Assembly: GCA_012523785.1 (NCBI GenBank)
Contig: JAAYTH010000047.1
Coordinates: 1 to 50,624 of the forward strand
Reading direction: 5' to 3'
DNA length: 50,624 nucleotides
Source of the DNA: Bacillota bacterium
GTDB lineage: Bacteria > Bacillota > DTU030
In this document: one piece after another, positions 3,501-16,504 of the stretch
Numbering within the stretch: the stretch's first letter is position 1
How the letters are laid out: each line of letters starts with the position of its first letter
Made by a program: the position numbers and the translations under genes
Notes under the pieces: generated by a model
Told to the model about the DNA's origin: nothing
What the model saw: only the letters and a program-made list of their open reading frames with translations
The model's database searches: none

Positions 3501-3970
3501 ACCCGATCACCCTTGGGACGTAGGGAGGAGAAACTATACCCGGTTCCACCACCGGCCTGCTGTACCAGGGCCATAGTCTGCAGCATCTCAAAAATATGGC
3601 CCATGTCATCGCCAACTACAAAGGCTGTGCAGGCTGCCTTGGATAGCCTGCGGCCTTTGCCGGAATTTGTGAGGGTGGGGGTGTTGAAAATGAGCTTTTT
3701 CGCAACCATTAGTTTATAAATATCTTCTGCAACCTTACGGATATCTTCCTTATTTCCGCCATAGTTTTCTTCCGCTGAAGCTATTTCTACTGCAACTCGC
3801 CAACACATGTCTTCCGGGGTTTCAATTACCTCCCCCTTTTTATTGCGCAGAAGGTAATTTCTTTTTTTAAGAATGGTTATGGCATTATCGGTCCATTGGC
3901 CGGATTCTGCGGGGCGCGGCCATTCCCGCCAGAGGGGATAAGCCCGTTTGGTTTCTTTTGATTTAGTCAT
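533..3970 (-). CDS. nrdJ: Class II (adenosylcobalamin-dependent) ribonucleotide reductase NrdJ, interrupted by one intein
   Basis: 1145-aa ORF. RNR motifs are present: FNTPTLTNSG, AACTAFVV, GGGTGYSFSSLRP, the thiyl-radical loop TTNP/CGEQPL (split by the intein), VAPNGTT, and the Cys-rich tail CPSCGNYTLVRAEGCAQCICGYSEC typical of NrdJ. An RBS (GGAGGA) sits upstream of the ATG at 3970. Confidence 0.95.
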   Translation of the reverse strand: MTKSKETKRAYPLWREWPRPAESGQWTDNAITILKKRNYLLRNKKGEVIETPEDMCWRVAVEIASAEENYGGNKEDIRKVAEDIYKLMVAKKLIFNTPTLTNSGKGRRLSKAACTAFVVGDDMGHIFEMLQTMALVQQAGGGTGYSFSSLRPKGDRVSSTGGESSGPVEFIKVFNRATEAVKQGGIRRGASLASLAADHPDIKEFIQSKIDGDLTNFNISVMAQDEFMRKAIGEDNDPYYPLINPRNGEIWGQANARELFDVICESAWLTGDPGLLFYDTINQDNPTPQVGTIETTNPCITGDTWVWVAEGLRQVRDLLEAPFTIITPEGKEQEVLPFFSTGRKAVYEIETTRGYKLKATADHLVQTDSGWLPVKKLVPGTAIALGSQVPKFALSRKEYHQGQLLGWLLGDGSFNDTDAILSFWGDDNEIGEKLAADLGVTPVPIAGRGEIRIKSRAVTKLAAEYAIIDTHTKTITDEIMQGSLSFQAGLLSALFAADGSVQIFAKGRFSIRLAQSSLTFLQRAQLILSRFGIIATIYKRRSAQKRLLPDGKGGQAYYPTKTQYELVLTSKSAAKFLDIIGFADEKKQAISSQYLSSLSRGPYNDKLYTSVKKVEYKGYEEVYDVQVPGANALVAGGLIIHNCGEQPLLHAEACNLGAINVAAYWDKESKSIREKKLREDTAFAVRALDNVIDVSSYPTAEMDQMVRANRKIGLGILGLADLLISAEIPYNSEEGRQFAAQVMQIVQEAAHAGSQELAAVRGTFPNWKGSTWEKLGQPMRNATTTTVAPNGTTGIIIGGTGGIEPIFAVAFTRRTADGQTLRFIHPLFEEVARREGFYNEKLMDQIAYKGTVQNIDGVPEKWQKVFAAAHDIHWRDHIKMQAALQQHVDNAISKTVNLPHEASISDVKAAYTLAWKLGCKGITIFRDGSKQGILTIGTKEQDKEDEPAPSGSLAWLDHQLAKAKTFNQLRNYLRKQGYVLAEWGNVRPMELPDRLPARWFERETPVGKAQIFVTELNGLPVQLFIQVGHGGSDIQADCEAIGRLTSGLLRAGVPLRWVTKQLKGIGGERQLGFGPDRVRSLADAIGKVLYDEYISNNTQSEQVTPPDKPNPQTHGPNFELCPSCGNYTLVRAEGCAQCICGYSEC
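2045..3076 (-). mobile_element. Intein (344 aa, residues 299-642 of the NrdJ ORF) with a LAGLIDADG homing-endonuclease domain
   Basis: It begins with Cys (CITGDTWVWV, block A) and has a TxxH block B (ATADHLV). Two dodecapeptide motifs are present: LLGWLLGDGSF and LLSALFAADGSV. It ends VYDVQVPGANALVAGGLIIHN followed by the +1 Cys. Removing it restores the canonical TTNPCGEQPL motif. I checked the codons: TGC at 3076-3074, AAT at 2047-2045, TGT (+1 Cys) at 2044-2042. Confidence 0.9.
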
Positions 3971-4372: not shown

Positions 4373-5389
4373 ATGCTGGCCCTGGACCAAGGGTTGCAAG
4401 AACTACTCATAACGGTAAATTCATTGTTGCGGGACCGGACTCAGAATTATCCCCGCCGGGATGCAATCAGGCGATATCTCCGGGAAAAAATAGGGACATT
4501 GCAGAAACGGGCCCCCCTTAAGATAGATGCTTTACGGGCCTTGGCCGATGGCCGCCCCCTGATAGGGGTGGATGGCTCTGTACATTCCTATGGGACTGTA
4601 TTTCCCCATATAATTTATTGTTTTCGGGCCTTGGCTTCGGCTTCAACCTTATCTGTGGAAAAGGGTATCTCCCGGGTGGACTTATTTTACCCTGAAATGG
4701 CAGACCATCGCCGGGAAATTGAGGAAATAATTTCCCAGGCTGCCGCAGGCGGGGAGGAATTAGCCCCCGAAACGGCCGCAGCCCGGGCGGTGCGGCAAAG
4801 GCTGGCTGTTTTAGAAGTACAGGTGGCTATGGAAGCAGTAAATAAGTACCAACCCTTTGCGGTTTTATTTGATGGTGGTTTTCTCCGTTATGGCGGCCTG
4901 GCCCCGGCCCAATGGCAGGAATACCGGGAATTATCCCTGGCCAAGGATGTGGTGAGCATTGGTATCATTGAAGAGATTGGGACCTTTGATTTGGCCCGGA
5001 AAGTTTCAGCTGGCTTTCCAGAAGCATCTCCTTTTAGCTGTGACCGGGAACTCCTTTTTGGTATCTTAAAAAAGGGGGAATGGCTGGCGGTAAAAGAGGA
5101 TCTGGAGTTTAAAAAGACCTATTATACCTGTTTTGCCCGGCCCGGCTATTATCCTGGCGCGGTGGCTTATGATTTTTTTCAGGAGCAAACCCGGCGGGCA
5201 GCGGAATTCGTCCCTCTCCTTTTTGGTCTCACCCCCCAAGGGGGGCGGGGAATTCCCCAGTGGCTTGATCAGGTAGATGCAGCAGTGCGGATTACCAGGG
5301 GTGAAATGGAACTTTTACTGGCCTCCGGTTTAGACCGGGAACTACGAGAACGGTTATTTGTGTCACAGCGGGAAAGAAGAACTCTGTAA
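4373..5389 (+). CDS. nurA: NurA-like 5'-3' nuclease
   Basis: 338 aa. Two NurA-type acidic motifs are present: PLIGVDGSVHSYG and AVLFDGGFLRYG. It sits immediately upstream (18-nt gap, with GGGAGGA before the next ATG) of a HerA-type ATPase, which is the canonical partner arrangement. Confidence 0.65.
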   Translation: MLALDQGLQELLITVNSLLRDRTQNYPRRDAIRRYLREKIGTLQKRAPLKIDALRALADGRPLIGVDGSVHSYGTVFPHIIYCFRALASASTLSVEKGISRVDLFYPEMADHRREIEEIISQAAAGGEELAPETAAARAVRQRLAVLEVQVAMEAVNKYQPFAVLFDGGFLRYGGLAPAQWQEYRELSLAKDVVSIGIIEEIGTFDLARKVSAGFPEASPFSCDRELLFGILKKGEWLAVKEDLEFKKTYYTCFARPGYYPGAVAYDFFQEQTRRAAEFVPLLFGLTPQGGRGIPQWLDQVDAAVRITRGEMELLLASGLDRELRERLFVSQRERRTL

Positions 5390-5406: not shown

Positions 5407-7275
5407 ATGCAGATTGTTGGGCACACCACACAACAGGTAGTTTATGCCGCCTCACGGCGGCGGCCCTTTCGTATCAATGAGCTCCTCTTGATAGAAGATA
5501 GGATCCACAGTAATAGTAATCCCCTGGGGGAGGTGGTGGAAACCCAGTCTTTTAATAGGTATATTCCTTTGGCCACGGAACATAGCGACTTAGTTGATCG
5601 CCAGGTGATGGAAAATTTGGCTCAATTAGGTTACGATATTGGGGCCGATACCATTCATTTGGCCAGAATTAGAATTTTGGCCGAACTTGCATCCCCCGTC
5701 TCTGTTGGCATAGCCGTACGGGTACCTACTTTTGCTGAGATTAGAGATTTTCTCATACCCCGGGATCCCGCCACAGGACTAGTGTTGGGGGTTATTAGGG
5801 GTACGGAAGAACTTACCGTTGGATTACCCGCCCAGCTATCTAGAGTGGCGCTGCTGTACCAAAAGGATAGCGGAATTATGCCCCAGAAGGGGATCCCCTA
5901 CATAATGGATCACTGGACTTGGCCTGAATACCCCCATATCGGTATTTTTGGTGGTTCTGGATCGGGTAAATCCTTTGCCTTGCGGGTTTTGTTAGAAGAA
6001 TTAATGCGACAACAGCTGCCGGGGCTTATCCTAGATCCTCATTTTGAACTGTCTTTTACCGAACCCTTTCCCGATTTGCCTGCATCTTACCGGGAGGATT
6101 TTACCCGCCGTTCTATAGTGCTTATGGCCGGGCGGGATGTGGGGATTCTTTTTGAGGAGTTGAATGCTGCCGATTTGATCAATCTCCTGCAGGCGGCGGG
6201 GGAGGTAACGGAAAATATGAATAACGCCATCCAGACCTTACACCGACGCCGGGATTCCTTTGTTAGTTTCAGCACTAGAATACGGGATTTGACCCGGGGG
6301 TTGGAAGAAGAACAGGATCTAAAAAGAAAACTCCGGGAAGATGATGGCGATGGTTTCCGGGAAAAACAGGAAATAAGGCGTATTTTAGGCTTAGTGGAAA
6401 AATATAAGGATCGAGTCGGGCACGTCAGTACCCTCCGGGCCATTTCCCGCCGCTTGAACCGCCTGCAAACGGAACGGATTTTTACCGGTGGCATTGAACC
6501 CATCCGGGAGGCTATTATGAATAGGCGTTTGGTAGTGGTTCAGGGGCCCATATGGTTTCTGCAGGTATTGGGGGCCTATGTGATTCGCAAATTTTATCGG
6601 GAACGGCGCCAATATCAGGATGCCGAGCAGACGGGGGGAGAGGCGCCGAAGTTCCCTCCTTTTATAGTAGCCACCGATGAAGCCCATAATTTTGCCCCTC
6701 GCTCACCAGAAATACCGGCGCCGGCCCGCTCAATCCTACGTACCATTGCCCAGGAGGGGCGAAAATATGGGGTGTTTTTAATCTTGGCTACCCAGCGCCC
6801 CGCCCTCTTGGAAGATACTATAACAGCCCAGTTGAATACTAAACTTATTTTCCGCACTATCCGCTCCTCTGATCTGGAGGTAATTCGCGAAGAGACAGAT
6901 TTGGGTCCGGAGGAAGTCAGAAGACTCCCCTACCTGGGCTCGGGAAATGCCTTTGTTTCTTCGGCGGCTGTGGGGCGGACCATTGCTGTTCGTATCCGGG
7001 TGGCAAAGACTGTCAGCCCCCATAGCCGGCATCCCTTTTTGGAGTTAAAGGAGGATTTTATTCCCCCGGAAGAAGAGCTGGGGGAGGCACTTTTGACCTA
7101 CCTCCCTTTAGGAGATTTTAACTTTGATGTTCATCTAGGTACCTTGCAGCAGGAGTTAAAGCGGCGGATTACAATAGAAGAAATAACCTGCTGTCTAGAA
7201 GACCTGGTAGGGGAGGGGATAGTCGAGAAGAAGGAGATGGTGTTGGGGGTGGAATACAGGCGGCGGGAGGATTGA
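5407..7275 (+). CDS. herA: HerA-like (FtsK/HerA superfamily) hexameric ATPase/translocase
   Basis: 622 aa. Walker A is GIFGGSGSGKSFALRVL, Walker B is PPFIVATDEAHNFAP, and the HerA/FtsK hallmark VFLILATQRPALL is present. Confidence 0.85.
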   Translation: MQIVGHTTQQVVYAASRRRPFRINELLLIEDRIHSNSNPLGEVVETQSFNRYIPLATEHSDLVDRQVMENLAQLGYDIGADTIHLARIRILAELASPVSVGIAVRVPTFAEIRDFLIPRDPATGLVLGVIRGTEELTVGLPAQLSRVALLYQKDSGIMPQKGIPYIMDHWTWPEYPHIGIFGGSGSGKSFALRVLLEELMRQQLPGLILDPHFELSFTEPFPDLPASYREDFTRRSIVLMAGRDVGILFEELNAADLINLLQAAGEVTENMNNAIQTLHRRRDSFVSFSTRIRDLTRGLEEEQDLKRKLREDDGDGFREKQEIRRILGLVEKYKDRVGHVSTLRAISRRLNRLQTERIFTGGIEPIREAIMNRRLVVVQGPIWFLQVLGAYVIRKFYRERRQYQDAEQTGGEAPKFPPFIVATDEAHNFAPRSPEIPAPARSILRTIAQEGRKYGVFLILATQRPALLEDTITAQLNTKLIFRTIRSSDLEVIREETDLGPEEVRRLPYLGSGNAFVSSAAVGRTIAVRIRVAKTVSPHSRHPFLELKEDFIPPEEELGEALLTYLPLGDFNFDVHLGTLQQELKRRITIEEITCCLEDLVGEGIVEKKEMVLGVEYRRRED

Positions 7276-7633
7276 TTAGATGTTTGCTTTATGCCGTCCC
7301 GATTGAAAACATCTTTATTTAAAGAAACAGTAACTACTCAACCGCCCGCGTAAGGCATATCTTGTTATCTTTCTTTATATACCCGCAGACTATCTAAATT
7401 GTTATCCTGCGCGTCCAGCCTGTCCAGAGTGAAACAAAGGAAGTGTAGCGGAGGGAGGGCAATGTTCAAAAGAACCTTCCAGCCTAATGCCAAGATCCTC
7501 TGCTCCGCTCCGGGTGACATTGCACGTTGCTGCTGACTAATGACTATTTAACTTTAGCGGCTGTTGTCTAATCTTCACAAAAAAACAATAAAAAGGCTGG
7601 CAACACCGAATATTCATTGGGAGGTGTACCTGG

Positions 7634-8623
7634 ATGAGATTGCTGTTTTTAACTGATACCCACCACCGGGGGACCTCGCCCCAGAACCGGTTGGATAATT
7701 TTCCCGCTAGCCAAAAGGAAAAGCTACAGGAAGTTGTCGCCTTGGTTGAAAAACATAAGGTTGATTTTGTACTCCACGGGGGAGACTTTTGGGATAATCC
7801 CTTTCCCGCCCTCAATGTCTGTGGGGAGATATTAGAAATATATCGTGCTATAAGTGTTCCCATCTATGCCATCGCCGGAAACCACGACCTCTATGGGCAC
7901 AACCTAAACACCCTCCATCGGACTATGCTGGGCTTTATGGCCCGCCTGGGATTAGTGCAACTTCTAAAACCCGGGGTGCCGGTATATTTGAAAAAGGAGG
8001 GCCTGGGGTTACAGCTTACGGGACAATCATATCATTATGATATGGACCGGAGGGATCCGGCTTTGGACTACTGTGTTCGCAAAGAAAAGTGTGATCTTGC
8101 CATCCATATGGTTCATGGTTTGCTGGCGGACCGTTCCCTGGGCAATATCATCCGGCATACAGTTGTTGATAGGATTTTAACAACAGAGGCGGACCTAACT
8201 CTGGCGGGACATTATCACCTGGGCTTTCCCCCTGTAGAAGTGGATGATCGCTACTTTCTTAACCCCGGTGCTCTAGTCCGGGTGAATAACCATCCCTCCG
8301 AAATATCCCGCCGGCCGGCGGTAATTCTTATTGATTTATCCGGTGGAGCTATAAACTATCAGCTGCTCCACCTACAATCTGCCCTTCCCGGCAAGCTTGT
8401 ATTGGATCGGGAACAAGTCGAGCTTAAAATGCAACGGGAGGAACGGCTGGCTGATTTTGTCCGGGGGGTAAAGGCAGCTGGTGAATACTATGGCCTTGAC
8501 TTAGGGGAAATGGTGGCCACGATTGCTGCCAAGGAGACTTTATCCCCGGCCGTCCGGGAGGAAGCCCTGCGACGCCTGGCCTTGGCCCAGGAAGATTTCC
8601 AGACTGGGGGAGCGCGAGCATGA
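7634..8623 (+). CDS. Mre11/SbcD-like metallophosphoesterase (DNA repair exonuclease)
   Basis: 329 aa. The calcineurin-type phosphoesterase motifs occur in order: LFLTDTHHRG, LHGGDFWD, IAGNHDLYGH, IHMVHG, LAGHYHLG. An RBS (GGGAGGTG) is present. The stop overlaps the next start (ATGA at 8620-8623). Confidence 0.85.
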   Translation: MRLLFLTDTHHRGTSPQNRLDNFPASQKEKLQEVVALVEKHKVDFVLHGGDFWDNPFPALNVCGEILEIYRAISVPIYAIAGNHDLYGHNLNTLHRTMLGFMARLGLVQLLKPGVPVYLKKEGLGLQLTGQSYHYDMDRRDPALDYCVRKEKCDLAIHMVHGLLADRSLGNIIRHTVVDRILTTEADLTLAGHYHLGFPPVEVDDRYFLNPGALVRVNNHPSEISRRPAVILIDLSGGAINYQLLHLQSALPGKLVLDREQVELKMQREERLADFVRGVKAAGEYYGLDLGEMVATIAAKETLSPAVREEALRRLALAQEDFQTGGARA

Positions 8624-9933
8624 AAAAACTTCAGCGACTGACCATTGAAAACTTCCAGTCCCATGAATTCACCCAAATTGATTTTTCCCCCGGATTCAAT
8701 GTCATCGTCGGCCAATCGGACCAAGGGAAATCGGCCCTAATTCGAGCCCTGAAGTGGCTTATTTATAATGAGCCCCGGGGTGTTGATTTTATCCGCGTTG
8801 GGGCAACAAGGAGTAGTGTTACCATTCTTTTAACAGATGGCACCCAAATAACGCGGGAACGGACCCCATCCCGAAATCGCTATTATCTTTTAATACCGGG
8901 GCAGGAGGAAAATATCTTTGAAGGGTTCGGATCCCGAGTTCCCCAGGAGATACAAGATGCTCTGGGGATGGGAAAAGTAAAATTGGACGAAGACCTGGAA
9001 AGGATGTTGAATTTAGGCGAACAGCTGGAGGCACCCTTTCTTCTAGCGGAAACTGGTTCTGTAAAGGCCAAGGCCATCGGCCGTCTGTACGGGGTGCATA
9101 TCATTGATGCTGCCCTACGAGAAACAGTGCGGGATATGAGCCGGGCCCAGCAGGAGGAAAAACGCCTCGAAGATCGCCTCCGGCAAGTATCCGGGGATCT
9201 GGATGATTACTCTGACCTTCCCAATTTGGCACAAAAGGTGCAATATTTAAGGCAAAAATTGACGGAACTCAAGGTACTAACGGGACGGCTGGATACCTGC
9301 CGGGGACTTAAACAGAGGAAGGAAGAATTAGACAGTTATATTTTGCGGGCTGAGATAACCATCAAGGGATTGGTGGGGCTGCCAAAATGTGAGGAGTTAA
9401 TAAAAAAGATCGCCTTACTCCGGTCCCGCCATAGTGCCGCTAGGGAATATCGCCGGGAATTAAAGCAGGCCCGGGAAAAGGTCCTGCAGGCAGAAAAAGT
9501 ATTGCAGGCTACCCAAGGTTTAAAAAGGGCGGAAGAGTGGCAGCTGGCGGCCCAAAATTGCCGCCGTATGGGAACAGAACTTGCTAATCTCTACCGGGAA
9601 AATAGAAGGATAGAAGGCCATATCAATAGGGCCCAGGAGATATTGCAGCGGACAAAGGGGATAGAACAAGCTGTAAGGCATTTGGAGCTATACCAGGAAA
9701 AGAGGAAAGAAAGGTCTGTTTTAGAAAAATATCGACAGGAGTTTAGAACTGCCTTTCAACGGGGCAAAGGTGCCGAAGAAGCAATTTTGAATGCAGAAAA
9801 AGCAATTCGTCAATATGGGGATGAATATGGGACTCTGCTGGAGGGGTTGGGTAAATGTCCCCTTTGCTTTAGCGATATAACCCCAGAGACTATTAAAGGG
9901 ATTTTGAGTGAGTATACCGGGGAGGGTAGTTAA
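8620..9933 (+). CDS. Rad50/SbcC-like ATPase, piece 1 of 3: N-terminal ATPase lobe, ascending coiled coil and CxxC zinc hook
   Basis: 437 aa. The N-terminus LTIENFQSHEFTQIDFSPGFNVIVGQSDQGKSALIRAL has an SMC/Rad50-type Walker A. About 250 aa of heptad-rich, charge-rich sequence follow. The protein ends 21 residues after GKCPLCFSDI, a Rad50-hook-type CPxC motif. Confidence 0.75.
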   Translation: MKKLQRLTIENFQSHEFTQIDFSPGFNVIVGQSDQGKSALIRALKWLIYNEPRGVDFIRVGATRSSVTILLTDGTQITRERTPSRNRYYLLIPGQEENIFEGFGSRVPQEIQDALGMGKVKLDEDLERMLNLGEQLEAPFLLAETGSVKAKAIGRLYGVHIIDAALRETVRDMSRAQQEEKRLEDRLRQVSGDLDDYSDLPNLAQKVQYLRQKLTELKVLTGRLDTCRGLKQRKEELDSYILRAEITIKGLVGLPKCEELIKKIALLRSRHSAAREYRRELKQAREKVLQAEKVLQATQGLKRAEEWQLAAQNCRRMGTELANLYRENRRIEGHINRAQEILQRTKGIEQAVRHLELYQEKRKERSVLEKYRQEFRTAFQRGKGAEEAILNAEKAIRQYGDEYGTLLEGLGKCPLCFSDITPETIKGILSEYTGEGS

Positions 9934-10200
9934 TTGGGCTATGAAGAACAACTAGATCAACTTAAAAGGGGCCTCCAACAGGCTCTGCGCCTACGGGCCG
10001 ATGCCGAGACAAAACACAGCTTTTATTTGGAACAACGGGAAAGGATTTTACAAAAGATCAAAGAATTAGGGGTGGAGCCGGAGGAGCTGGACAAGGAAAT
10101 TAGCCGTTTGCAAAGGGAAATGGACCGGCTGTTAAAGGAGGCCGAAAAACTTATTCCTTGGGATTTACTTAAACAGCAGGAAGGTCAGGGGCGAGGGTGA
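9934..10200 (+). CDS. Rad50/SbcC-like ATPase, piece 2 of 3: 88-aa coiled-coil protein
   Basis: TTG start directly after the TAA of piece 1, in the same reading frame. GGGGAGGG lies 7 nt upstream. The sequence is entirely coiled-coil-like (EEQLDQLKRGLQQALRLRADAETKHSFYLEQRERILQKIKELG...). Confidence 0.5.
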   Translation: MGYEEQLDQLKRGLQQALRLRADAETKHSFYLEQRERILQKIKELGVEPEELDKEISRLQREMDRLLKEAEKLIPWDLLKQQEGQGRG

Positions 10201-10207
10201 TAAATAA

Positions 10208-10867
10208 ATGGCAAACTTACTTCAATTACAAAATGCTTTAGTGGATCTAGAAGCCCTTTACCACCAACGGCAGGGGCAGCGGGATCAGCTAGTCAGGGAA
10301 AGAAAAAGGCTACAGCAACAATTGGAGGAGATCATCCTAAAACGTGATTTATTGGATGAGGTACGGATCCTGTTTCAGATGACCTCTGAACATGCCCGGG
10401 AACAGGCACGGCAAACCATCGAATCTATGGTAACCCGGGCCCTCCAATATGTTTTTGGAGCTGACTTAGAGTTTAAAATCCGTATCGAGGAATCCCGGGG
10501 ACGGCCGGAGGCTGAGTTTTATGTGGCCTCAACCTATGGGGGTGAAGATGTTGTGGAGAACCGACCTCAGGATGCCCGGGGGGGTGGAGTGGTAGATGTG
10601 ATTTCCTTGGCCCTACGCCTGGTTCTTCTCCAGAGTACCCGCCCCCTCCTAGAGGGCCCGCTGCTTTTAGATGAACCAGCTAAGCATGTCTCCGATGAGT
10701 TTGCCTTCAATGTGGCGGAATTTTTGCGTGAGCTAGCCCAGGTCTTTGACCGGCAGGTGATTATGGTAACCCACAATCATCAGTTGGCCGGTGTGGCTGA
10801 CAATGCTTTTCGGGTGGAGATGGGGGAAGGAAAAAGTAGGGTTAATCAAGTGGGGGAAATTTTATAG
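10208..10867 (+). CDS. Rad50/SbcC-like ATPase, piece 3 of 3: descending coiled coil and C-terminal ATPase lobe
   Basis: 219 aa with its own RBS (GAGGGTGA) and ATG. The N-terminal 70 aa are coiled coil. These are followed by a signature-motif-like region ARGGGVVDVISLALRLVL, Walker B/D-loop PLLLDEPAKHVS, and a His-switch VMVTHNHQL. Confidence 0.7.
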   Translation: MANLLQLQNALVDLEALYHQRQGQRDQLVRERKRLQQQLEEIILKRDLLDEVRILFQMTSEHAREQARQTIESMVTRALQYVFGADLEFKIRIEESRGRPEAEFYVASTYGGEDVVENRPQDARGGGVVDVISLALRLVLLQSTRPLLEGPLLLDEPAKHVSDEFAFNVAEFLRELAQVFDRQVIMVTHNHQLAGVADNAFRVEMGEGKSRVNQVGEIL

Positions 10868-10988
10868 TGGGAAGGGTTTTCTCGGTGGGCATGTTCTAAG
10901 GTGTGTATAAAAGAAGGATGTCATATAATAGCTAATGGCTGGGGTGTGTTATTGTTATTGTAGTTAAATTCATTTAGGGGTTGATCCT

Positions 10989-13901
10989 GTGTACCATTGG
11001 GAGCAGGAAGGGCTATTTGCCCCGGCTGGTAAACAGCTATTTTTCTGGGGCAGTGGAAGAGAAATGAAGGATTACCTCCGGCAATTTTTAAAAGAAATGC
11101 AGGGGATGGGTCTGGAGCCGGATGAGATATTACTATTGTCACCCTACCGGGAAACAAAGAATGGGCTTAATTATCTTCTTCAGGAAGTATTTGGTGGCCG
11201 GGTAGCCAGACCCCACCTGGCCACCCTTCAGGGATTCTGTTTGGAGTTTTTAAATAGGGAAGGGCACCGCATCGGGTTGGAGGACCGGCCGGAGGTAATT
11301 AGGGGTTGGCAGGAATTTCTCATCCTGAAGAATCTGCTCCCCGGGCTAGTCCCCCAAGGTTATGATCCAACCTTGTGGGAAGAAAATGGACTTGTAGGTG
11401 AGATCCTGAGTTTTTTCAACCACCTTTGGGGACAAGGTATTAACCCAGTGGAATTCCGGCAAAGGGCACATAATTTTTCCGGGCCCCAACTCCTTGATTT
11501 ATCCATTGCTTATTCTAAATATGCCGATTTTTGCCGGCAGAGGGGATACCTCCCCTTGGCGGCCATAGCGCCTCTATCCTTCCAGCTTTTACAAGAACAT
11601 TCCTTCTTGCTGAAAAAATGCCGGGAGGGTAGACGGCTACTCATCGCTACTGATCTGGATCAACTAAAACCAGTTCAACTGCAAATAGTGGAGAGTCTTT
11701 TCGCTGTTTTTCCCTACTCCTTGGGCCTGGCTTTTAAAGGTTCTGGCTTAAGCAAAAAATTAAAGGCCGGGAAATCTGTCCAAGTGATAATGGGGGAAGA
11801 ATTAAAGCGGGAAAAAAAGATACAAGGATACAGTAACGGGGAGATGGAAAACTGGGGTGTGGCCCAGAAGATTGGCCAACTACTGGCAGAGGGGAAATAT
11901 AATCCTGGGGAAATTGCAGTTTTTCTTGGTGACACCTCCCGGGGGCAGCCGCTGATGAAGATTTTGGCCGCCATGGGCATTCCTTGTTATACTAAATTTA
12001 TCGGAGATACACCCTTGGAGCCGGTGTTGAGTTTTTTATCTGATTACCTAGAGGCCTTAATGGAACCGGACAACAATGAGGGGCAGATGAAATGGTTGTC
12101 TTCGCCGCTACTAGGTCTGGATGGTTTATGGTTGCGGCGGGCCTTCTATCGGGCCCAGGAACAGGACCGGCAATTGTTAGATGTGTTGGCTGATACGGGG
12201 AAAAAACCGGTGAAATTTTTCCTTTACCATCTTGAGGGGATTAGGACAGCTTGCATAAGCCCCCTGGAAATAGTGGAAGAATTATATGAAGAATATAATT
12301 TATTTCAGCCCCATGTGGATGGCCCGGGAGAGGGAAAAGGACAGGAGGTCCCGGAACCTTCAAGCAAGCGGCAGGATTTTCTTATGCTGGCGCGGGAATG
12401 TGAAGACCTAAACCACCATTTTAGGGGTAAAGATGCAAGCCTCCAGGAATTTCTGCAGCAACTAGAAGGGGCCTGGCCTTATTTAAAACGGGAAATAAGG
12501 GTTGCTGTGGGCCCAGGGGAAGGGGTTATGTTTGCTCTTATTCGGGATGCCCCTAAGTACATGCCTGGGGCTGCCTTTCTACCCGCAATGGCTGCTAATA
12601 TCTATCCACCCCAACGGATTCCAGCTCCCCTCCTGGGCAAAGGGGAATGGAATGAGCTCCGGGATATTTTTCCCCACTTGGAATTGCCTCCGGATTTTGA
12701 CCCCCGCCGTTTTCATACCGAGCATCGAGTTGCTTTAGAGCGGGGGGCTGCTGCCGCTGATCAGGCTTGGATCAGTTGGGCCCGCTCCTATCCTGAAATA
12801 GAAAAAACCGGGCCCTCGGATCTCTTGAGTGAGAATGTAGAAAAAAGGTATAAAACAGAGTTTAAGGAGGAATACCATTTTACCTGGCCCGATCCCGCTC
12901 CGGGAGCAACTACCAGGGAACGTTTAAGTGATTTTTACTCCCAGCAAATTAGCCGTGGGGGGGCAAAGCCATTGCCCAGGGCCCAGGAGGAGCCGGGCCA
13001 ATTTGGTATTTACCTTAAGAACCTTACTCCTCCCATCGAGGGAAAGAGGATAGCCGCCCAGATCGACTATTTCACCCCTTCCGCTATTAGGACTTATTTG
13101 GCCTGTCCCCGGCGTTATTATTATCAAAACATCCTGAAACTAAAAACTCCCCCCTACCCCCGCGCCCAGTTGGGTTTATTTTTGCACCGGGTCCTGGAGG
13201 TTTTTCACCGCCGTTTTCCCTCCCTGTTTGGTGTTGATGAAGAAATCGCAGGGTCCTATATGGAACAGGTTTTCAAGGAAATATGGCTAGACATGAGGTC
13301 ATCCTTTGGAAAGGGACTTCTATCAGATTTTTACCGGCAGGAAGCCAAATCCATCTGCCGGGCTTACTTGGCCCGGGAATTGCCCAATTGGGAACCGGGG
13401 CGATGGGCCAGGGTGGAAGAAACTATTGATTTCACCTTTAGGGGCAACCGACTACGGGGCCGCTGGGATAGGTTGGATATACTACCCGGTGGTGGTTGGG
13501 AAATAATTGACTACAAGACGGGAAGGGATCAGACAGAAGGGCAGCGTAAAAGGGAATTCCTACCCCGCGAAGGCGAAGGACCGGTGGACATGCAGTTGAT
13601 TATCTATTACCTGGGGGCTAGGAAGAAGGGAATATCCCCGGAGTACTTTACCTGGTATCGACTTTCAGGACTCATAGGCCGAAGTAAGGTAAAACGCAGT
13701 TTGTTCTTTGGGGAGGGGAAGGGTGGTATCACGCCAAGCGATTTGGAAAAGGCCAAGGGGATCCTTACCGAAATATTAGGGGAGATGCGGACAAATGATT
13801 ACCCCCCTAGACCCCGGAATGATCGAATCTGCAAGTATTGTGCCTTCCGATTTCCTTGTCCCGGCTCTCAACCTCTGGAGGAAGGGGAAATAAATGAATA
13901 G
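10989..13901 (+). CDS. addB: AddB-like subunit: degenerate helicase-like N-terminal region plus C-terminal PD-(D/E)XK nuclease with an Fe-S cluster
   Basis: 970 aa. I see no intact Walker A in the N-terminal part. The C-terminus has the AddB/RecB-family pattern: first Cys in YLACPRRYYYQ, nuclease core GRWDRLDIL...WEIIDYKTGR, and a terminal CKYCAFRFPC triad. It overlaps the following helicase gene by 8 nt. Confidence 0.75.
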   Translation: MYHWEQEGLFAPAGKQLFFWGSGREMKDYLRQFLKEMQGMGLEPDEILLLSPYRETKNGLNYLLQEVFGGRVARPHLATLQGFCLEFLNREGHRIGLEDRPEVIRGWQEFLILKNLLPGLVPQGYDPTLWEENGLVGEILSFFNHLWGQGINPVEFRQRAHNFSGPQLLDLSIAYSKYADFCRQRGYLPLAAIAPLSFQLLQEHSFLLKKCREGRRLLIATDLDQLKPVQLQIVESLFAVFPYSLGLAFKGSGLSKKLKAGKSVQVIMGEELKREKKIQGYSNGEMENWGVAQKIGQLLAEGKYNPGEIAVFLGDTSRGQPLMKILAAMGIPCYTKFIGDTPLEPVLSFLSDYLEALMEPDNNEGQMKWLSSPLLGLDGLWLRRAFYRAQEQDRQLLDVLADTGKKPVKFFLYHLEGIRTACISPLEIVEELYEEYNLFQPHVDGPGEGKGQEVPEPSSKRQDFLMLARECEDLNHHFRGKDASLQEFLQQLEGAWPYLKREIRVAVGPGEGVMFALIRDAPKYMPGAAFLPAMAANIYPPQRIPAPLLGKGEWNELRDIFPHLELPPDFDPRRFHTEHRVALERGAAAADQAWISWARSYPEIEKTGPSDLLSENVEKRYKTEFKEEYHFTWPDPAPGATTRERLSDFYSQQISRGGAKPLPRAQEEPGQFGIYLKNLTPPIEGKRIAAQIDYFTPSAIRTYLACPRRYYYQNILKLKTPPYPRAQLGLFLHRVLEVFHRRFPSLFGVDEEIAGSYMEQVFKEIWLDMRSSFGKGLLSDFYRQEAKSICRAYLARELPNWEPGRWARVEETIDFTFRGNRLRGRWDRLDILPGGGWEIIDYKTGRDQTEGQRKREFLPREGEGPVDMQLIIYYLGARKKGISPEYFTWYRLSGLIGRSKVKRSLFFGEGKGGITPSDLEKAKGILTEILGEMRTNDYPPRPRNDRICKYCAFRFPCPGSQPLEEGEINE

Positions 13902-16341
13902 ATATCTAAAGGGGTTAAATCCTGAACAGCGGCAGGCCGTTACCTATCCTTTGGATAAACCCCTTAAGGTGTTGGCCGGGGCCGGAACCGGCAAGACCAG
14001 GGTACTGACCACCAGATATATACATATCCTGGCCCAGGGCGGCAACTGGGCCCCGGAAAACATTTTAGCCTTGACCTTTACCAATAAGGCGGCGGCGGAA
14101 ATGAAAGAACGCATTGTTGATTCTTGCCGGAGGATGAGGATTGCCACTGGCCCTCTGTTTTTGCAAGAGAGCTGGATAGGCACCTTTCATTCCTGCTGCC
14201 ATCGATTTCTGCGGGAACATGCCCTAGGGGCAGGATTAGACCCGGAATTTACTGTTTATGATGAGGCCCGTTCTTGGCTCCTCTATCGGCGGGTGGTGGA
14301 TGAATTTTTATCCGCTAAGGGGGCAGTGCCGGAGGGCTTTGTCCTTACTGATCTCAATTTCTACGTAAAGGATGTCTATTTCCTCATCAATCGCCTGAAG
14401 GACAGCCTTATCTATCCAGATGATTACCAGCAGATGGTCAGAGAAGAAAATAATAAATATTATGACCGCTGGGGGGAGCTCTTAATGGGTTTAGGTGATA
14501 TGGAGCTACACCCGGCAACCCGGAAGGTTTTAATGGAGAGGGGCGAGGAGGCCCGGGAACAATCGGCTTGGGAGGGGGATCTCATCCAGGTCACCAATTT
14601 TTTGTTTTCTGCCTATCAAGAGGCACTGGCAGCAGCAAGGGCCCTTGATTTTGCTGATCTCATCTATTATACCTACCGGCTTTTACGGGACAATGTGGCC
14701 CTGGGAGAGGAGTGCCGACACCGATTTGCCTATATTTTGGTGGATGAATTTCAGGATACCAATAGGGCCCAATTTGCCCTTTTGCGCCTTTTGGCCCGGG
14801 ATGAAAAAATGTCTAATGTAACGGTAGTGGGGGATGAAAGACAGGCCATATATGGTTGGCGGAATGCCCGGATAGAAAATGTGAGGGAATTTGCGGCCCG
14901 GGAGTGGGGGGGTGAAGAGATAAGATTGCACACAAATTACCGTTCCTATCAGCAAATACTAGATCTAGCCCAGTTTAGTATGGAAAAATCCCCCCATTTG
15001 CTGCAGGATAATTCGCCCCTCCGGGCCCAGCGGGGAGTTGCCCCTGGGCCCCGCATCAGTTTGGCACTGGCCCAGGATAGGGGAGAGGAAGGAAACATAA
15101 TTGCCGCCGCCATTGGTGAACTCCTAAAGCAGGGGATGAGGGCTGAAGATATAGTAATTCTTCTGCGCAGCCCCCGCTGGGCCCAACCCTACGAGGGTGC
15201 CCTGCGCCTAAGGGGTATCCCCTTTCAGACCGTCGGCGGTGTGGGTTTTTATGATCGGGAAGAAATTAAAGATCTTTTGGCTTACCTGCGGGTTATTACC
15301 AACCCCTACGACGACCTGGCCTTGGTACGGGCCCTCATGGCCCCGCCTTGTTTTTGCAGTGATGCCGATTTGGCACAGATATGCCAATTGCAAAAACGGC
15401 GGGAGGGGATTGGAGGGGAAGAGGTCCATTTATATGATATCCTGCGCGGAGTGTTAGTGGAACCTGAAATTCCCCCGGCGGTAAGAAAGAAGGTGGAAGT
15501 CTTTTTGGCGCTGGGGGAAGGACTTATTGAATTACAAGATAAGATGTCACTGACAGATTTTTTGAACCAGATTCTACAAAGGACCGCCTATCTTAACTAT
15601 GTTTATGCTAACCCACCAGATGAAGTTCGCCGTCGAATTGGCAATATCAAGAAACTCTTTTCCCTCGCTTCCCAAATAGATCCGGGAACAGCTGCTGAAT
15701 TTATCCGTTATGCGGAATTCTTTTCGGAAAATGATCTACGGGAAGGCGAAGAAGCGGCCGGGTATAGGGATGCTGTCACCATAATGAGTGTCCACCAGGC
15801 CAAGGGTTTGGAGTTTCCCTATGTTTTTTTACCCAATCTCACGGATACTAATTTCCCCGTCCGGGCCCCTTACCCCAATTTAGATTACAGTGAAGATCTG
15901 GGATTAATTATAAAAAAGGACCGGTTGGGAAGGGATATGGCAAAATTTGCCCCCCATAATTATGATAAAGAAAATTATCGAGATATTTATAACCACTTTG
16001 GGATTATTAGTTACAAAGATAGACAGCGGGAAGAACAGCTACAGGAGGAGCGCCGTCTTTTTTATGTGGCCCTGACCAGGGCCCAAGAGGGGCTGTATTT
16101 GACTTGTCCTAAACCTTTCCCAAAAAGATCCCGGGGGCCCCATTTCTTCCGGGAAATCTGGGAAGGATATGAGCCGGCGGAAAAAATTGTGGGGCAGAAG
16201 GTTCAAGGTCCGGCGGGAGATGAAGACCCTTTGCTAGACTGGAAGCCGGGAGAGCTGCAGCAATACCATGAGGTTTTGTCAAAGTGGCTAGAGCTAGGAA
16301 AAAGGATTTTTACCGCTTCTGACAAATTTTTGCCAAAATAG
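13894..16341 (+). CDS. UvrD/PcrA/AddA-type superfamily 1 helicase with no recognisable C-terminal nuclease domain
   Basis: 815 aa. Motifs: LNPEQRQAV, Walker A AGAGTGKTRVLT, TFTNKAAAEM, ILVDEFQDTN, VGDERQAIYGWRNA, TNYRS, VTIMSVHQAKGLEFPYVF, LFYVALTRAQEGLYL. The protein ends about 90 aa after the last helicase motif. Confidence 0.9.
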   Translation: MNRYLKGLNPEQRQAVTYPLDKPLKVLAGAGTGKTRVLTTRYIHILAQGGNWAPENILALTFTNKAAAEMKERIVDSCRRMRIATGPLFLQESWIGTFHSCCHRFLREHALGAGLDPEFTVYDEARSWLLYRRVVDEFLSAKGAVPEGFVLTDLNFYVKDVYFLINRLKDSLIYPDDYQQMVREENNKYYDRWGELLMGLGDMELHPATRKVLMERGEEAREQSAWEGDLIQVTNFLFSAYQEALAAARALDFADLIYYTYRLLRDNVALGEECRHRFAYILVDEFQDTNRAQFALLRLLARDEKMSNVTVVGDERQAIYGWRNARIENVREFAAREWGGEEIRLHTNYRSYQQILDLAQFSMEKSPHLLQDNSPLRAQRGVAPGPRISLALAQDRGEEGNIIAAAIGELLKQGMRAEDIVILLRSPRWAQPYEGALRLRGIPFQTVGGVGFYDREEIKDLLAYLRVITNPYDDLALVRALMAPPCFCSDADLAQICQLQKRREGIGGEEVHLYDILRGVLVEPEIPPAVRKKVEVFLALGEGLIELQDKMSLTDFLNQILQRTAYLNYVYANPPDEVRRRIGNIKKLFSLASQIDPGTAAEFIRYAEFFSENDLREGEEAAGYRDAVTIMSVHQAKGLEFPYVFLPNLTDTNFPVRAPYPNLDYSEDLGLIIKKDRLGRDMAKFAPHNYDKENYRDIYNHFGIISYKDRQREEQLQEERRLFYVALTRAQEGLYLTCPKPFPKRSRGPHFFREIWEGYEPAEKIVGQKVQGPAGDEDPLLDWKPGELQQYHEVLSKWLELGKRIFTASDKFLPK

Positions 16342-16384
16342 TATTTGTATGGTATTATTATGGTGATGTTAAAATAAAAACAAA

Positions 16385-16490
16385 TAATCTCCGAGCCTGA
16401 TTAGCCTAAAGGTGTAAAGCCCAGGGTACCAGGCCGCTAGGGTACACCGGAAACGGTGCTGCCTCCCGGAATTATGGAAAGGAGATGGCG
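16385..16490 (+). promoter_or_regulatory. Candidate molybdenum/tungsten cofactor (Moco RNA motif) riboswitch aptamer
   Basis: As I recall them, the conserved Moco-motif blocks occur in the expected order. They are CTCCGAGCC (16389-16397), CCTAAAGG (16405-16412), GCCTCCC (16461-16467) and GGAAAGGAG (16476-16484). CTCC and GGAG can close a P1 stem. There is a 5-bp hairpin capped by a GAAA tetraloop (CACCG-GAAA-CGGTG, 16445-16458). Tetraloop-receptor-like halves are present: CCTAA(A)G and TATGG (16473-16477). No covariance-model search was run. Confidence 0.55.
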
Positions 16491-16504
16491 ATATAGAAGT
16501 TTTT

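What the first reader, a model, noticed from the sequence alone, without database searches (positions are those of the whole stretch)
8620..10867. Rad50/SbcC-like ATPase encoded as three polypeptides, with the first break exactly after the zinc hook and marked by a single in-frame TAA
What the sequence shows:
- Piece 1 (437 aa) carries the N-terminal ATPase lobe and a coiled coil, and ends 21 residues after CPLC.
- Its TAA stop (9931-9933) is followed immediately, in the same reading frame, by the TTG start of piece 2 (88 aa, pure coiled coil).
- GGGGAGGG lies 7 nt upstream of that TTG.
- Piece 3 (219 aa) is in another frame and has its own RBS and ATG. It supplies the remaining coiled coil, the signature-like motif, Walker B (LLLDEP) and the His-switch.

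A functional Rad50 head needs the N and C lobes of one chain brought together by its antiparallel coiled coil. Here the two arms would be separate chains joined only non-covalently at the hook apex.

Possible explanations are a genuine conserved split architecture, stop-codon read-through or coupled reinitiation at the TAA-TTG junction, or a recent nonsense mutation or sequencing error (a pseudogene).

The total length of about 744 aa is also short for SbcC or Rad50, implying short coiled coils.
Basis: partly seen in the sequence, partly recalled or inferred. Interest (0 to 1): 0.65.

Follow-up and report, generated by a model that had tools for sequence, protein, structure and literature searches.

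The report
Naturally three-piece Rad50 DNA-repair ATPase
The DNA-break-repair ATPase Rad50, normally one long chain that folds back on itself, is here made from three separate conserved proteins, an arrangement shared by hundreds of Bacillota genomes and their phages that no paper I could find describes.

Summary
Three adjacent ORFs (437, 88 and 219 aa) carry, in order, the Rad50 N-lobe plus ascending arm plus CPLC zinc hook, a small coiled-coil protein, and the Rad50 C-lobe.

It is not a pseudogene, a sequencing error or a read-through site.
- All 120 best homologues of piece 1 end 17-37 residues after a CPxC hook.
- Piece 2 occurs only as a free-standing small protein (102 clusters among 1.84 billion proteins).
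- Piece 3 is always about 210-260 aa.
- The three-gene layout next to an Mre11 nuclease recurs in about 80 cellular loci and in many of 562 or more viral loci.
- The piece 1/piece 2 junction uses all three frames (32/28/21), so the in-frame TAA-TTG here is coincidence.
- In Acetivibrio, piece 3 sits at an unlinked locus.
- Two independent metagenome assemblies and one metatranscriptome contig reproduce both junctions exactly.

Both halves match P. furiosus Rad50 best. The catalytic motifs are invariant.

One feature is unexpected. The arm of piece 1 is built from 47-aa tandem repeats, three to six per protein, while pieces 2 and 3 keep a constant length.

How the arms pair, and how many copies of piece 2 are present, remain unresolved.

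Verdict: a real split, three-subunit Rad50, which is a new variant of a known kind.

The parts
4373..5389 (+). NurA-like nuclease gene (338 aa), first gene of the cluster
   Evidence: It matches Pfam NurA at E 3.7e-14. A NurA gene is present upstream in 35 of 82 related cellular loci.
5407..7275 (+). HerA-like FtsK/HerA-family ATPase gene (622 aa)
   Evidence: It matches Pfam DUF87/HerA at 2.2e-14 and NCBIfam helicase_HerA at 5e-17. A HerA gene is present in 37 of 82 related loci.
7634..8623 (+). Mre11/SbcD-like metallophosphoesterase nuclease gene (329 aa); its stop overlaps the piece 1 start (ATGA)
   Evidence: It matches Pfam Metallophos at 7.6e-13, with weak NCBIfam sbcd/Mre11 hits. Motifs DTHH, GGDFWD, GNHD and GHYH are visible in the sequence. 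An Mre11 gene is adjacent in 82 of 82 cellular loci.
8620..9933 (+). Piece 1 (437 aa): Rad50 N-terminal ATPase lobe, ascending helical arm, zinc hook, and a short helix after the hook
   Evidence: It matches Pfam AAA_23/AAA_15 and NCBIfam Rad50 PRK03918 at 8e-21. The best PDB profile hits are PfRad50 N chain 3qkr_A/1ii8_A (about 1e-11) and the hook structures 1l8d/6zff. The AF2 model has pLDDT 80.7, and its best Foldseek hit is 1f2u_A. All 120 homologues end 17-37 aa after CPxC.
8710..8733 (+). Walker A / P-loop GQSDQGKS (residues 31-38 of piece 1)
   Evidence: G31, D34, G36 and K37 are invariant in 94 homologues.
9238..9801 (+). Four tandem ~47-aa helical repeats forming most of the arm (residues ~207-394 of piece 1)
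   Evidence: AF2 predicts helices 200-251, 254-298, 301-345 and 348-410, separated by 2-residue breaks. hhalign between repeat profiles gives probability 95-98% and E 1e-8 to 1e-12, against scores of 15-19 for reversed controls. The hook position in relatives is quantised at about 366/413/460/508. Each repeat has one a/d hydrophobic seam.
9856..9867 (+). CPLC zinc-hook motif (residues 413-416 of piece 1)
   Evidence: C413, P414 and C416 are invariant. The flanking sequence aligns to the P. furiosus Rad50 hook structure 1l8d at E 8e-6 and 3.7e-5.
9919..9936 (+). Junction between pieces 1 and 2: Shine-Dalgarno-like GGGGAGGG (9919-9926), TAA stop (9931-9933), TTG start (9934-9936)
   Evidence: The sequence is. 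The TTG aligns with the initiator Met of relatives (MGYEEQL...). The frame relation is not conserved.
9934..10200 (+). Piece 2 (88 aa): conserved free-standing helix-break-helix coiled-coil subunit with motifs RxRAE, GVxPExL and LIPWDLL
   Evidence: It is present in 79 of 82 cellular loci between pieces 1 and 3. It forms 102 clusters among 1.84e9 proteins, all 56-184 aa. It matches phrog_18563 'unknown function'. It has no Pfam, PDB or PADLOC homologue.
10208..10867 (+). Piece 3 (219 aa): helix of about 60 aa that leaves the head (descending arm base) plus the Rad50 C-terminal ATPase lobe
   Evidence: phmmer best PDB hit is PfRad50 C chain 3qkr_B at 1.4e-5. The AF2 model has pLDDT 90.4, with helix 2-83 followed by an alpha/beta lobe. 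Foldseek hits are 5h66_B, 3qkr_B, 1ii8_B and 1f2t_B. There are 1057 homologues, and the best 120 are all 202-258 aa.
10577..10597 (+). Signature-like motif RGGGVVD (residues 124-130 of piece 3)
   Evidence: R124, G125, G126, G127 and D130 are invariant in 89 homologues.
10661..10678 (+). Walker B LLLDEP with catalytic Glu (residues 152-157 of piece 3), followed by a D-loop-like AKHVS
   Evidence: L154, D155, E156, P157, K159, H160 and S162 are invariant.
10772..10774 (+). His-switch histidine (H189 of piece 3, in VTHN)
   Evidence: H189 is invariant.
10989..16341 (+). Downstream AddB-like (970 aa, PD-(D/E)XK) and AddA-like (815 aa, UvrD helicase) genes: the neighbouring end-resection machinery
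   Evidence: Pfam matches are PDDEXK_1 at 7.9e-33 and UvrD-helicase at 1.9e-71. The same neighbourhood is seen in L002/L003.

Best explanation
This is a functional Rad50-type ATPase built from three separately translated subunits. It is encoded next to its Mre11-type nuclease and, in this genome, next to NurA, HerA and AddAB.

**Shown**
- The three genes are each conserved families with fixed boundaries.
- The catalytic residues are invariant.
- The locus is transcribed as sequenced.

**Inferred mechanism**
- Piece 1 supplies Walker A, the Q-loop, the whole ascending arm and the CPxC hook. Two hooks share one zinc ion to join two complexes.
- Piece 3 supplies the signature motif, Walker B, the D-loop and the His-switch.
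- The N-terminal helix of piece 3, about 60 aa, pairs antiparallel with the base of the piece 1 arm. This rebuilds the ABC head and the Mre11-binding arm base, as in the engineered two-chain P. furiosus Rad50 catalytic domain.
- Piece 2 lies on the hook-proximal part of the arm, taking the place of the descending strand that follows the hook in ordinary Rad50.
- The three cistrons are produced by translational coupling through overlapping or abutting stops and starts.
- The complex recognises and processes DNA ends for recombinational repair.

**Unresolved**
The piece 1 arm changes length by whole 47-aa repeats with no matching change in pieces 2 and 3. The central repeats must therefore be buried by something other than a continuous descending strand. 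Candidates are the partner arm, extra copies of piece 2, or self-packing.
For: **ORFs and motifs.**

**Conserved boundaries**
- All 120 piece 1 homologues end 17-37 aa after CPxC.
- The best 120 piece 3 homologues are 202-258 aa.
- Piece 2 is found only as a small protein in a scan of 1.84e9 proteins.

**Conserved gene layout**
- Among 82 cellular loci, Mre11 is present in 82, piece 1 in 81, piece 2 in 79 and piece 3 in 63.
- The same three pieces occur in viral loci, with Mre11 before, between, after or fused to them.
- Piece 3 is unlinked in Acetivibrio clariflavus.
- Junction frames are random and spacers are tiny.

**Family assignment**
- Piece 1 matches the PfRad50 N chain and hook.
- Piece 3 matches the PfRad50 C chain.
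- Catalytic residues are invariant.

**Interdependence and pairing**
- In the piece 1-only model the Q-loop region, residues 121-160, is disordered (pLDDT below 50), as expected if it needs piece 3.
- The smallest viral piece 1 is about 293 aa, giving an arm of about 125 aa. This is close to piece 2 plus the piece 3 helix, about 133 aa.

**Sequence and expression.** Independent DNA assemblies and an RNA contig are identical across both junctions.
Against: - No direct evidence here shows that the three proteins bind one another, or in what ratio. Complex prediction could not be run.
- Homology of piece 2 to a Rad50 descending arm is weak. The alignment to 1l8d runs only about 13 residues past the junction.
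- Piece 2 versus the piece 3 helix is at noise level.
- The lengths of pieces 2 and 3 do not follow the length of piece 1 (r = -0.11). A simple one-to-one antiparallel arm therefore cannot hold for most family members.
- One MAG (L069) has an internal deletion in piece 2.
- The family is very common in phages, so a role other than host repair is conceivable.
Confidence: 0.82

Rival explanations
1. Piece 2 is not a leftover of the descending arm. It is a distinct accessory subunit. It could bind in several copies along the repeated arm of piece 1, as the small helical XseB subunits decorate XseA in exonuclease VII. Alternatively it could bridge to Mre11 or HerA.
For: - Piece 2 has sharply conserved specific motifs and a fixed length.
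- It has no detectable similarity to piece 1 repeats and only noise-level similarity to the piece 3 helix.
- The piece 1 arm is made of homologous repeats, each with a buried-type hydrophobic seam. Repeat number varies from 3 to 6 with no change in pieces 2 or 3.
- Piece 2 stays with piece 1 when piece 3 moves elsewhere in the genome.
- A precedent exists for multi-copy small helical subunits: ExoVII XseA4-XseB24 (abstract of PMC10835039, seen).
Against: - The helical length of piece 2 (about 72 aa) is not a multiple of the 47-aa repeat.
- The gene order of pieces 1, 2 and 3 mirrors the order of segments in an ordinary Rad50.
- In the smallest viral forms, one copy of piece 2 plus the piece 3 helix already matches the arm length.
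- Tight translational coupling suggests roughly equal synthesis.
Confidence: 0.25
2. The module is basically a phage or mobile-element recombination or defence-related system. It would not be the host's housekeeping break-repair complex, and the copy in this window would be a domesticated or resident mobile copy.
For: - At least 562 viral contigs encode relatives, including Bacillus phage 0305phi8-36 and prophage phBC6A51.
- Each piece has its own PHROG family.
- There are weak PADLOC similarities to LmuB, mad3 and mad8.
Against: - In the window and its close relatives, the genes sit in a syntenic chromosomal neighbourhood with ribonucleotide reductase, NurA-HerA and AddAB.
- PADLOC hits are far from full-length and cover generic ABC-ATPase regions.
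- The layout is conserved across many cultured Bacillota at the same locus type.
Confidence: 0.15
3. Pieces 1 and 2 are joined into one protein by read-through of the in-frame TAA, or the gap reflects programmed recoding.
For: In this window the TTG start is the next in-frame codon after TAA. One relative, L052, also has a zero-gap in-frame junction.
Against: - Across 81 loci the two genes use all three relative frames (32/28/21), often overlapping.
- Close relatives at 77% and 51% identity overlap out of frame.
- TAA followed by T is a strong terminator context (general knowledge).
- The RNA contig shows no editing.
Confidence: 0.02
4. The breaks are a recent nonsense or frameshift mutation or an assembly error, so the locus is a pseudogene.
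For: None beyond the bare appearance of a stop and a frame change inside what looks like one gene.
Against: - The same boundaries occur in all relatives.
- Catalytic residues are invariant.
- Two independent assemblies and one RNA contig are identical.
- Piece 3 is unlinked in some genomes.
Confidence: 0.01

Closest known systems
Rad50/SbcC with Mre11/SbcD (canonical single-chain SMC-like ABC ATPase with zinc hook)
   Same: It shares Walker A, the Q-loop, the signature-like motif, Walker B, the D-loop and the His-switch. It has a CPxC hook with Rad50-like flanks and an adjacent Mre11-type nuclease gene. The best sequence and fold matches are to P. furiosus Rad50.
   Different: - It is encoded and conserved as three polypeptides, broken 17-37 aa after the hook and again about 60 aa before the C-lobe.
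- The total is only 744 aa.
- The ascending arm is made of 47-aa tandem repeats whose number varies without any matching change in the other strand.
Engineered two-chain P. furiosus Rad50 catalytic domain (PDB 1F2T/1F2U, 1II8, 3QKR)
   Same: The N and C halves are separate chains that assemble into an active ABC head with a short antiparallel arm stub. Pieces 1 and 3 match chains A and B of these entries respectively.
   Different: Those are laboratory truncations that lack most of the arm and the hook. Here the split is natural, keeps the full arm and hook on the N-terminal chain, and adds a third subunit.
Archaeal-type NurA-HerA-Mre11-Rad50 gene cluster
   Same: The window has NurA, HerA, Mre11 and the Rad50 pieces in one co-directional cluster. 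About 43% of related cellular loci do too.
   Different: It is bacterial (Bacillota), Rad50 is tripartite, AddAB lies next to it, and many relatives and all the phage versions examined lack NurA-HerA.
Mre11-Rad50 fusion protein of Bacillus phage 0305phi8-36 (gp8, A7KV18), described by Yoshida et al. 2011 (PMC3175470)
   Same: It belongs to the same family. gp8 is Mre11 fused to a piece 1 homologue ending after its CxxC. gp7 is piece 2 and gp5 is piece 3. It is the top BFVD match.
   Different: In the phage the nuclease is fused to piece 1. The paper noted that one P-loop NTPase segment 'was not observed', and did not report that it is encoded by a separate downstream gene.
Exonuclease VII XseA-XseB (analogy only)
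   Same: A nuclease complex in which many copies of a small helical subunit sit on a larger subunit: XseA4-XseB24 (abstract of PMC10835039). It is a precedent for one reading of piece 2.
   Different: There is no homology, no ABC ATPase and no zinc hook. The resemblance was not tested.

Membership tests
Rad50/SbcC family | N-terminal ABC lobe with Walker A and Q-loop, homologous to Rad50 | tested here: met
   Piece 1 matches NCBIfam Rad50 PRK03918 at 8e-21 (far below the full-length cut-off, as expected for a fragment). The PDB profile hit to PfRad50 N chain is about 1e-11, and Foldseek gives 1f2u_A. G31, D34, G36, K37 and Q135 are invariant.
Rad50/SbcC family | C-terminal ABC lobe with signature motif, Walker B, D-loop and His-switch | tested here: met
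   Piece 3 matches PfRad50 C chain at 1.4e-5. Foldseek hits are SMC/Rad50 C-terminal chains. RGGG..D, DEP and H189 are invariant. The signature motif reads RGGG rather than the usual SGG(E/Q).
Rad50/SbcC family | CxxC zinc hook at the far end of the coiled-coil arm | tested here: met
   CPxC is invariant, and the flanks align to the hook structures 1l8d/6zff at 8e-6 to 4e-5. Zinc binding itself was not testable.
Rad50/SbcC family | One polypeptide whose two arm strands form an intramolecular antiparallel coiled coil | tested here: not met
   There are three separate genes in every relative examined, and no uninterrupted homologue among the listed hits.
Rad50/SbcC family | Ascending and descending arm strands of matching length | tested here: not met
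   The piece 1 arm is about 240 aa here and about 190-335 aa in cellular relatives. Piece 2 plus the piece 3 helix stays constant at about 135-145 aa, and lengths are uncorrelated (r = -0.11).
Rad50/SbcC family | Partner Mre11/SbcD nuclease encoded alongside | tested here: met
   A metallophosphoesterase with Mre11 motifs overlaps the piece 1 start. An Mre11 gene is adjacent in 82 of 82 cellular loci, and adjacent or fused in most viral loci.
Rad50/SbcC family | ATP-dependent DNA-end binding and stimulation of Mre11 nuclease | not testable with these tools
   This needs biochemistry.
Archaeal-type HerA-NurA-Mre11-Rad50 operon | Co-directional cluster of all four functions | tested here: met
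   In the window NurA is 4373-5389, HerA is 5407-7275, Mre11 is 7634-8623 and the Rad50 pieces are 8620-10867. This is not universal in the family: HerA is present in 37 of 82 loci.
RecN | Full-length match to RecN models, no zinc hook, no Mre11 partner | tested here: not met
   Piece 3 hits TIGR00634 at 6e-10, scoring 38.6 bits against a cut-off of 408. A hook and an Mre11 gene are present.
Anti-phage SMC-like ATPases (Lamassu LmuB, Gabija GajA, Septu/retron PtuA, MADS mad3) | Full-length match to the defence-system model and the cognate effector genes nearby | tested here: not met
   PADLOC hits are partial. LmuB at 7e-14 covers residues 3-99 only, and mad3 matches piece 3 at 1e-12. No cognate partner genes are present, and the neighbours are repair genes.

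The most novel reading that the evidence does not exclude
The tripartite Rad50 has an arm architecture not seen in any SMC-like protein. The arm would be a single-chain rod of 47-aa repeats carrying the hook, capped at its two ends by separate subunits: piece 3 at the head and piece 2 at the hook. The central repeats would be buried by the partner arm or by extra copies of piece 2. Because the descending strand is discontinuous, arm length could evolve by gaining or losing single repeats. If so, head-to-hook communication in Rad50 would not need a continuous two-stranded coiled coil.
Probability: 0.3. Interest if true: 0.85.

Novelty: new variant of a known kind. Interest (0 to 1): 0.7.

Why it matters
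Rad50, like all SMC-type proteins, is thought to depend on one chain folding back on itself, so that the hook and the ATPase head are linked through a continuous antiparallel coiled coil. How signals travel along that arm is an open question.

This family is a natural, widespread version in which the chain is cut just after the hook and again near the head. One strand of its arm varies by whole repeats. It offers a ready-made system for testing which covalent connections and which arm pairings are actually needed.

It also corrects the annotation of hundreds of genes. These are currently labelled 'AAA family ATPase', 'exonuclease SbcC', 'hypothetical protein' and 'chromosome segregation ATPase' in Bacillota and their phages. 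They include prophage phBC6A51 of Bacillus cereus (genes BC1852-BC1857) and Bacillus phage 0305phi8-36. For that phage, a published analysis had noted a missing ATPase half without locating it.

Tried and rejected
**Complex prediction could not be done.**
- A block alignment of a typed piece 1 + 2 + 3 concatenation with separate homologue sets was badly misaligned by MAFFT, so I did not submit it.
- Model coordinates are not returned. Whether the piece 1 helices form a rod or a zigzag bundle therefore could not be read off. The BFVD comparison (rmsd 87 Å to gp8) only shows that at least one of the two models is extended.

**Coevolution between adjacent repeats was uninformative.** Mutual information with average-product correction over 431 repeat pairs was swamped by shared ancestry, with no diagonal standing out.

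**Profile comparisons involving piece 2 were at noise level.** This applies to piece 2 versus the piece 3 N-helix (probability 44%, score 23) and versus piece 1 repeats, judged against reversed-sequence controls.

**Searches with piece 2 gave only generic coiled-coil or repeat-protein hits.** I searched PDB, Pfam, NCBIfam and PADLOC. The match of the GVxPE motif to designer PPR proteins is spurious.

**Literature searches for a split Rad50 or SbcC found nothing**.

**One relevant paper could not be read.** The ABC-ATPase classification paper of Krishnan et al. 2020 (PMC7544218) is not held, so prior mention there cannot be excluded.

**Hypotheses considered and rejected:** pseudogene, read-through, RecN, and membership of a defence system (see the rival explanations and membership tests).

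Full report
**1.

The window carries three abutting ORFs on the + strand.
- Piece 1 is 8620-9933 (437 aa).
- Piece 2 is 9934-10200 (88 aa, TTG start).
- Piece 3 is 10208-10867 (219 aa).

Piece 1 starts in an ATGA overlap with the stop of an upstream Mre11-like gene. It has a Walker A motif (GQSDQGKS), a long helical stretch and CPLC at residues 413-416, and it stops at TAA 21 residues later. The next codon, in the same frame, is the TTG start of piece 2, with GGGGAGGG 7 nt upstream. Piece 3 is in another frame and carries RGGGVVD, LLLDEP and THN.

Contigs from two unrelated DNA studies reproduce 9055-10900 without a single difference. A metatranscriptome contig covers 9862-10654, which spans both junctions, also unchanged. 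Sequencing error and RNA-level repair of the frame are therefore excluded. One caveat is that metatranscriptomes can contain some DNA.

**2. The breaks are a family trait.**

*Piece 1.* A protein search returned 333 relatives. All of the best 120 are 388-541 aa long and end 17-37 residues after a CPxC motif.

*Piece 3.* There are 1057 relatives, and the best 120 are 202-258 aa.

*Piece 2.* In an exhaustive scan of 1.84 billion representative proteins, it matches 102 clusters. All are small proteins of 56-184 aa, mostly 77-100, and none lies inside a long protein.

*Cellular loci.* Close relatives at 77% and 51% identity have the same three genes (444+84+220 aa and 442+88+220 aa), but there piece 2 overlaps the end of piece 1 in a different frame. 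A scan of one genome per species found 267 matching species. Counts for the 80 loci fetched plus two earlier ones:

| Gene | Loci with it (of 82) |
|---|---|
| Mre11 | 82 |
| Piece 1 | 81 |
| Piece 2 | 79 |
| Piece 3 | 63 |
| HerA | 37 |
| NurA | 35 |

*Junctions.* The relative frame of pieces 1 and 2 is 32/28/21 across the three possibilities. The spacers are tiny, with medians of 3 nt and 1 nt, and there are many ATGA-type overlaps. The in-frame TAA-TTG of this window is therefore a one-in-three coincidence. Read-through is not a conserved mechanism, and translational coupling is the likely way the three are co-produced.

*Unlinked piece 3.* In the Acetivibrio group the operon is Mre11, piece 1, piece 2 only. 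In A. clariflavus, piece 3 lies elsewhere, between folD and rny. This is hard to reconcile with anything but three independent genes.

**3. Both ATPase halves are Rad50.**

*Piece 1.*
- A profile of piece 1 finds the P. furiosus Rad50 N-terminal chain (3qkr_A, 1ii8_A, about 1e-11) and the Rad50 hook structures 6zff (1.3e-5) and 1l8d (3.7e-5).
- Its AlphaFold model (pLDDT 80.7) matches 1f2u_A best.

*Piece 3.*
- It finds the C-terminal chain of the same crystal constructs (3qkr_B at 1.4e-5).
- Its model (pLDDT 90.4) is one helix spanning residues 2-83 followed by the C-lobe.
- That model matches the C-terminal chains of SMC and Rad50 heads.

*Conservation.* Walker A and Q135 in piece 1 are invariant. 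So are the RGGG..D, DEP and H189 residues in piece 3.

*Interdependence.* In the piece 1-only model the Q-loop region (residues 121-160) is disordered. This fits a lobe that is incomplete without its partner.

**4. Piece 2 is a true, specific subunit.**

It aligns without internal gaps across the family. It has the motifs RxRAE, GVxPExL and a C-terminal LIPWDLL, and a conserved helix break in the middle. It has no homologue in Pfam, NCBIfam, PADLOC or the PDB.

A profile of the piece 1 C-terminus joined to piece 2 hits the P. furiosus hook structure at 8e-6. The alignment runs on across the junction for about 13 residues. That is suggestive only.

**5. An unexpected feature: a repeat-built arm.**

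The model of piece 1 has helices 161-195, 200-251, 254-298, 301-345 and 348-410, separated by two-residue breaks.

Profile comparison shows that the last four helices are homologous ~47-aa repeats, aligned in register. Probabilities are 95-98% and E-values are 1e-8 to 1e-12, with scores of 33-42 against 15-19 for reversed controls.

In the 120 homologues the hook sits at about residue 366, 413, 460 or 508, in 9, 39, 41 and 31 proteins respectively. That corresponds to three to six repeats.

Each repeat keeps a single a/d hydrophobic seam along its length, so each is buried against something.

Yet piece 2 (78-103 aa) and piece 3 (210-239 aa) do not change with piece 1 length (r = -0.11). A simple one-to-one antiparallel arm cannot hold for most members.

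In the smallest viral versions piece 1 is about 293 aa, with an arm of about 125 aa. There, piece 2 plus the piece 3 helix (about 133 aa) would just cover the arm. This supports the idea that these two form the descending strand and that extra repeats were inserted later.

What buries the extra repeats is unknown. The candidates are the partner arm, more copies of piece 2, or self-packing. My attempts to decide failed, both by coevolution analysis and by model comparison.

**6. The family is also common in phages.**

A scan of viral contigs found at least 562 relatives. Two layouts recur.
- Layout A is piece 1, piece 2, piece 3, Mre11.
- Layout B is a short piece 1, Mre11, an ~80-aa coiled-coil ORF (a divergent piece 2), then piece 3.

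In Bacillus phage 0305phi8-36, gp8 is Mre11 fused to piece 1, gp7 is piece 2 and gp5 ('chromosome segregation ATPase') is piece 3. In B. cereus prophage phBC6A51 the genes are BC1852, BC1854, BC1855 and BC1857.

PHROGs files the pieces as three unrelated families, named 'exonuclease', 'unknown function' and 'ATPase'.

Yoshida et al. 2011 noted that the 0305phi8-36 fusion lacks one P-loop segment, but did not locate it.

Five literature searches found no description of a split Rad50. One relevant classification paper could not be read.

**7. Context and likely role.**

In the window the cluster reads NurA, HerA, Mre11, pieces 1-3, AddB, AddA. It lies downstream of a divergently oriented ribonucleotide reductase gene, and the closest relatives share the core of this order, with extra genes inserted in some. 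Defence-system models match only partially.

I conclude that this is the organism's DNA-end-processing complex. That rests on inference from family and neighbourhood. A mobile or phage-related role is kept as a minority rival.

**8. Verdict.**

Pseudogene, sequencing error and read-through are rejected.

The thing works like Rad50-Mre11, but it fails two defining structural features of the family: a single chain, and matched arm strands. I therefore class it as a new variant of a known kind.

The assembly model is inferred, not shown. In that model piece 3 sits on the arm base and piece 2 sits near the hook. The stoichiometry of piece 2 and the pairing of the central repeats are open.

Noticed in passing
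window 533-3970 (- strand): The ribonucleotide reductase large-subunit gene carries an intein with a LAGLIDADG homing-endonuclease domain (Pfam Intein_splicing and LAGLIDADG_3 inside Ribonuc_red_lgC). The relative L002/L003 has the same.
   Followed up: no
window 13894-16341: The AddA-like helicase is only 815 aa and shows no PD-(D/E)XK nuclease domain. The corresponding gene in relative L002/L003 is 1073-1135 aa and has one. The ORF here ends just before a riboswitch, so it may be truncated or rearranged.
   Followed up: no
window 16377-16500: A molybdenum/tungsten cofactor (Moco) riboswitch, Rfam RF01055 at 64.9 bits, lies immediately after the AddA-like gene and upstream of an S-layer-homology protein gene.
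   Followed up: no
window 7462-7536: A short ORF with a strong Shine-Dalgarno sequence begins MFKRTFQPNAK, resembling the conserved N-terminus of ribosomal protein L34 (from memory), and then diverges. It lies in the 360-nt HerA-Mre11 spacer, which is not conserved in L001.
   Followed up: partly
window ~7560-7633: The last ~70 nt before the Mre11 start are well conserved with relative L001, while the rest of the spacer is not. They include AACACCGAATATT and the ribosome-binding site. This may be a promoter or operator for the Mre11 and piece 1-3 unit.
   Followed up: no
L069 8437-8525 (Mahella sp. MAG): Piece 2 has an internal deletion of about 175 nt relative to its close relative L053, leaving only the last 27 codons. 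It is the only such case among about 80 loci, and may be a real loss or an assembly fault.
   Followed up: partly
L165 (Bacillus phage 0305phi8-36) 2987-7023; also L097: The Mre11 nuclease is fused to the N-terminus of the piece 1 homologue (gp8, 769 aa). An extra 238-aa gene (gp6) sits between piece 2 (gp7) and piece 3 (gp5). A second viral contig, L097, has a similar 707-aa fusion.
   Followed up: partly
L002/L003 4318-4908 and 8338-10094: In the 51%-identity relative, an aldolase class II gene lies between HerA and Mre11. A Zn-dependent phospholipase C-like gene plus an opposite-strand gene lie between piece 3 and AddB. The repair cluster therefore tolerates insertions.
   Followed up: no
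piece 1 residues 40-60 (window ~8737-8799): A family-specific, nearly invariant motif RAL+W..YNEPRG.DF.R.G follows the Walker A helix. It was specific enough to serve as the search pattern in both collection scans. Its role is unknown.
   Followed up: no
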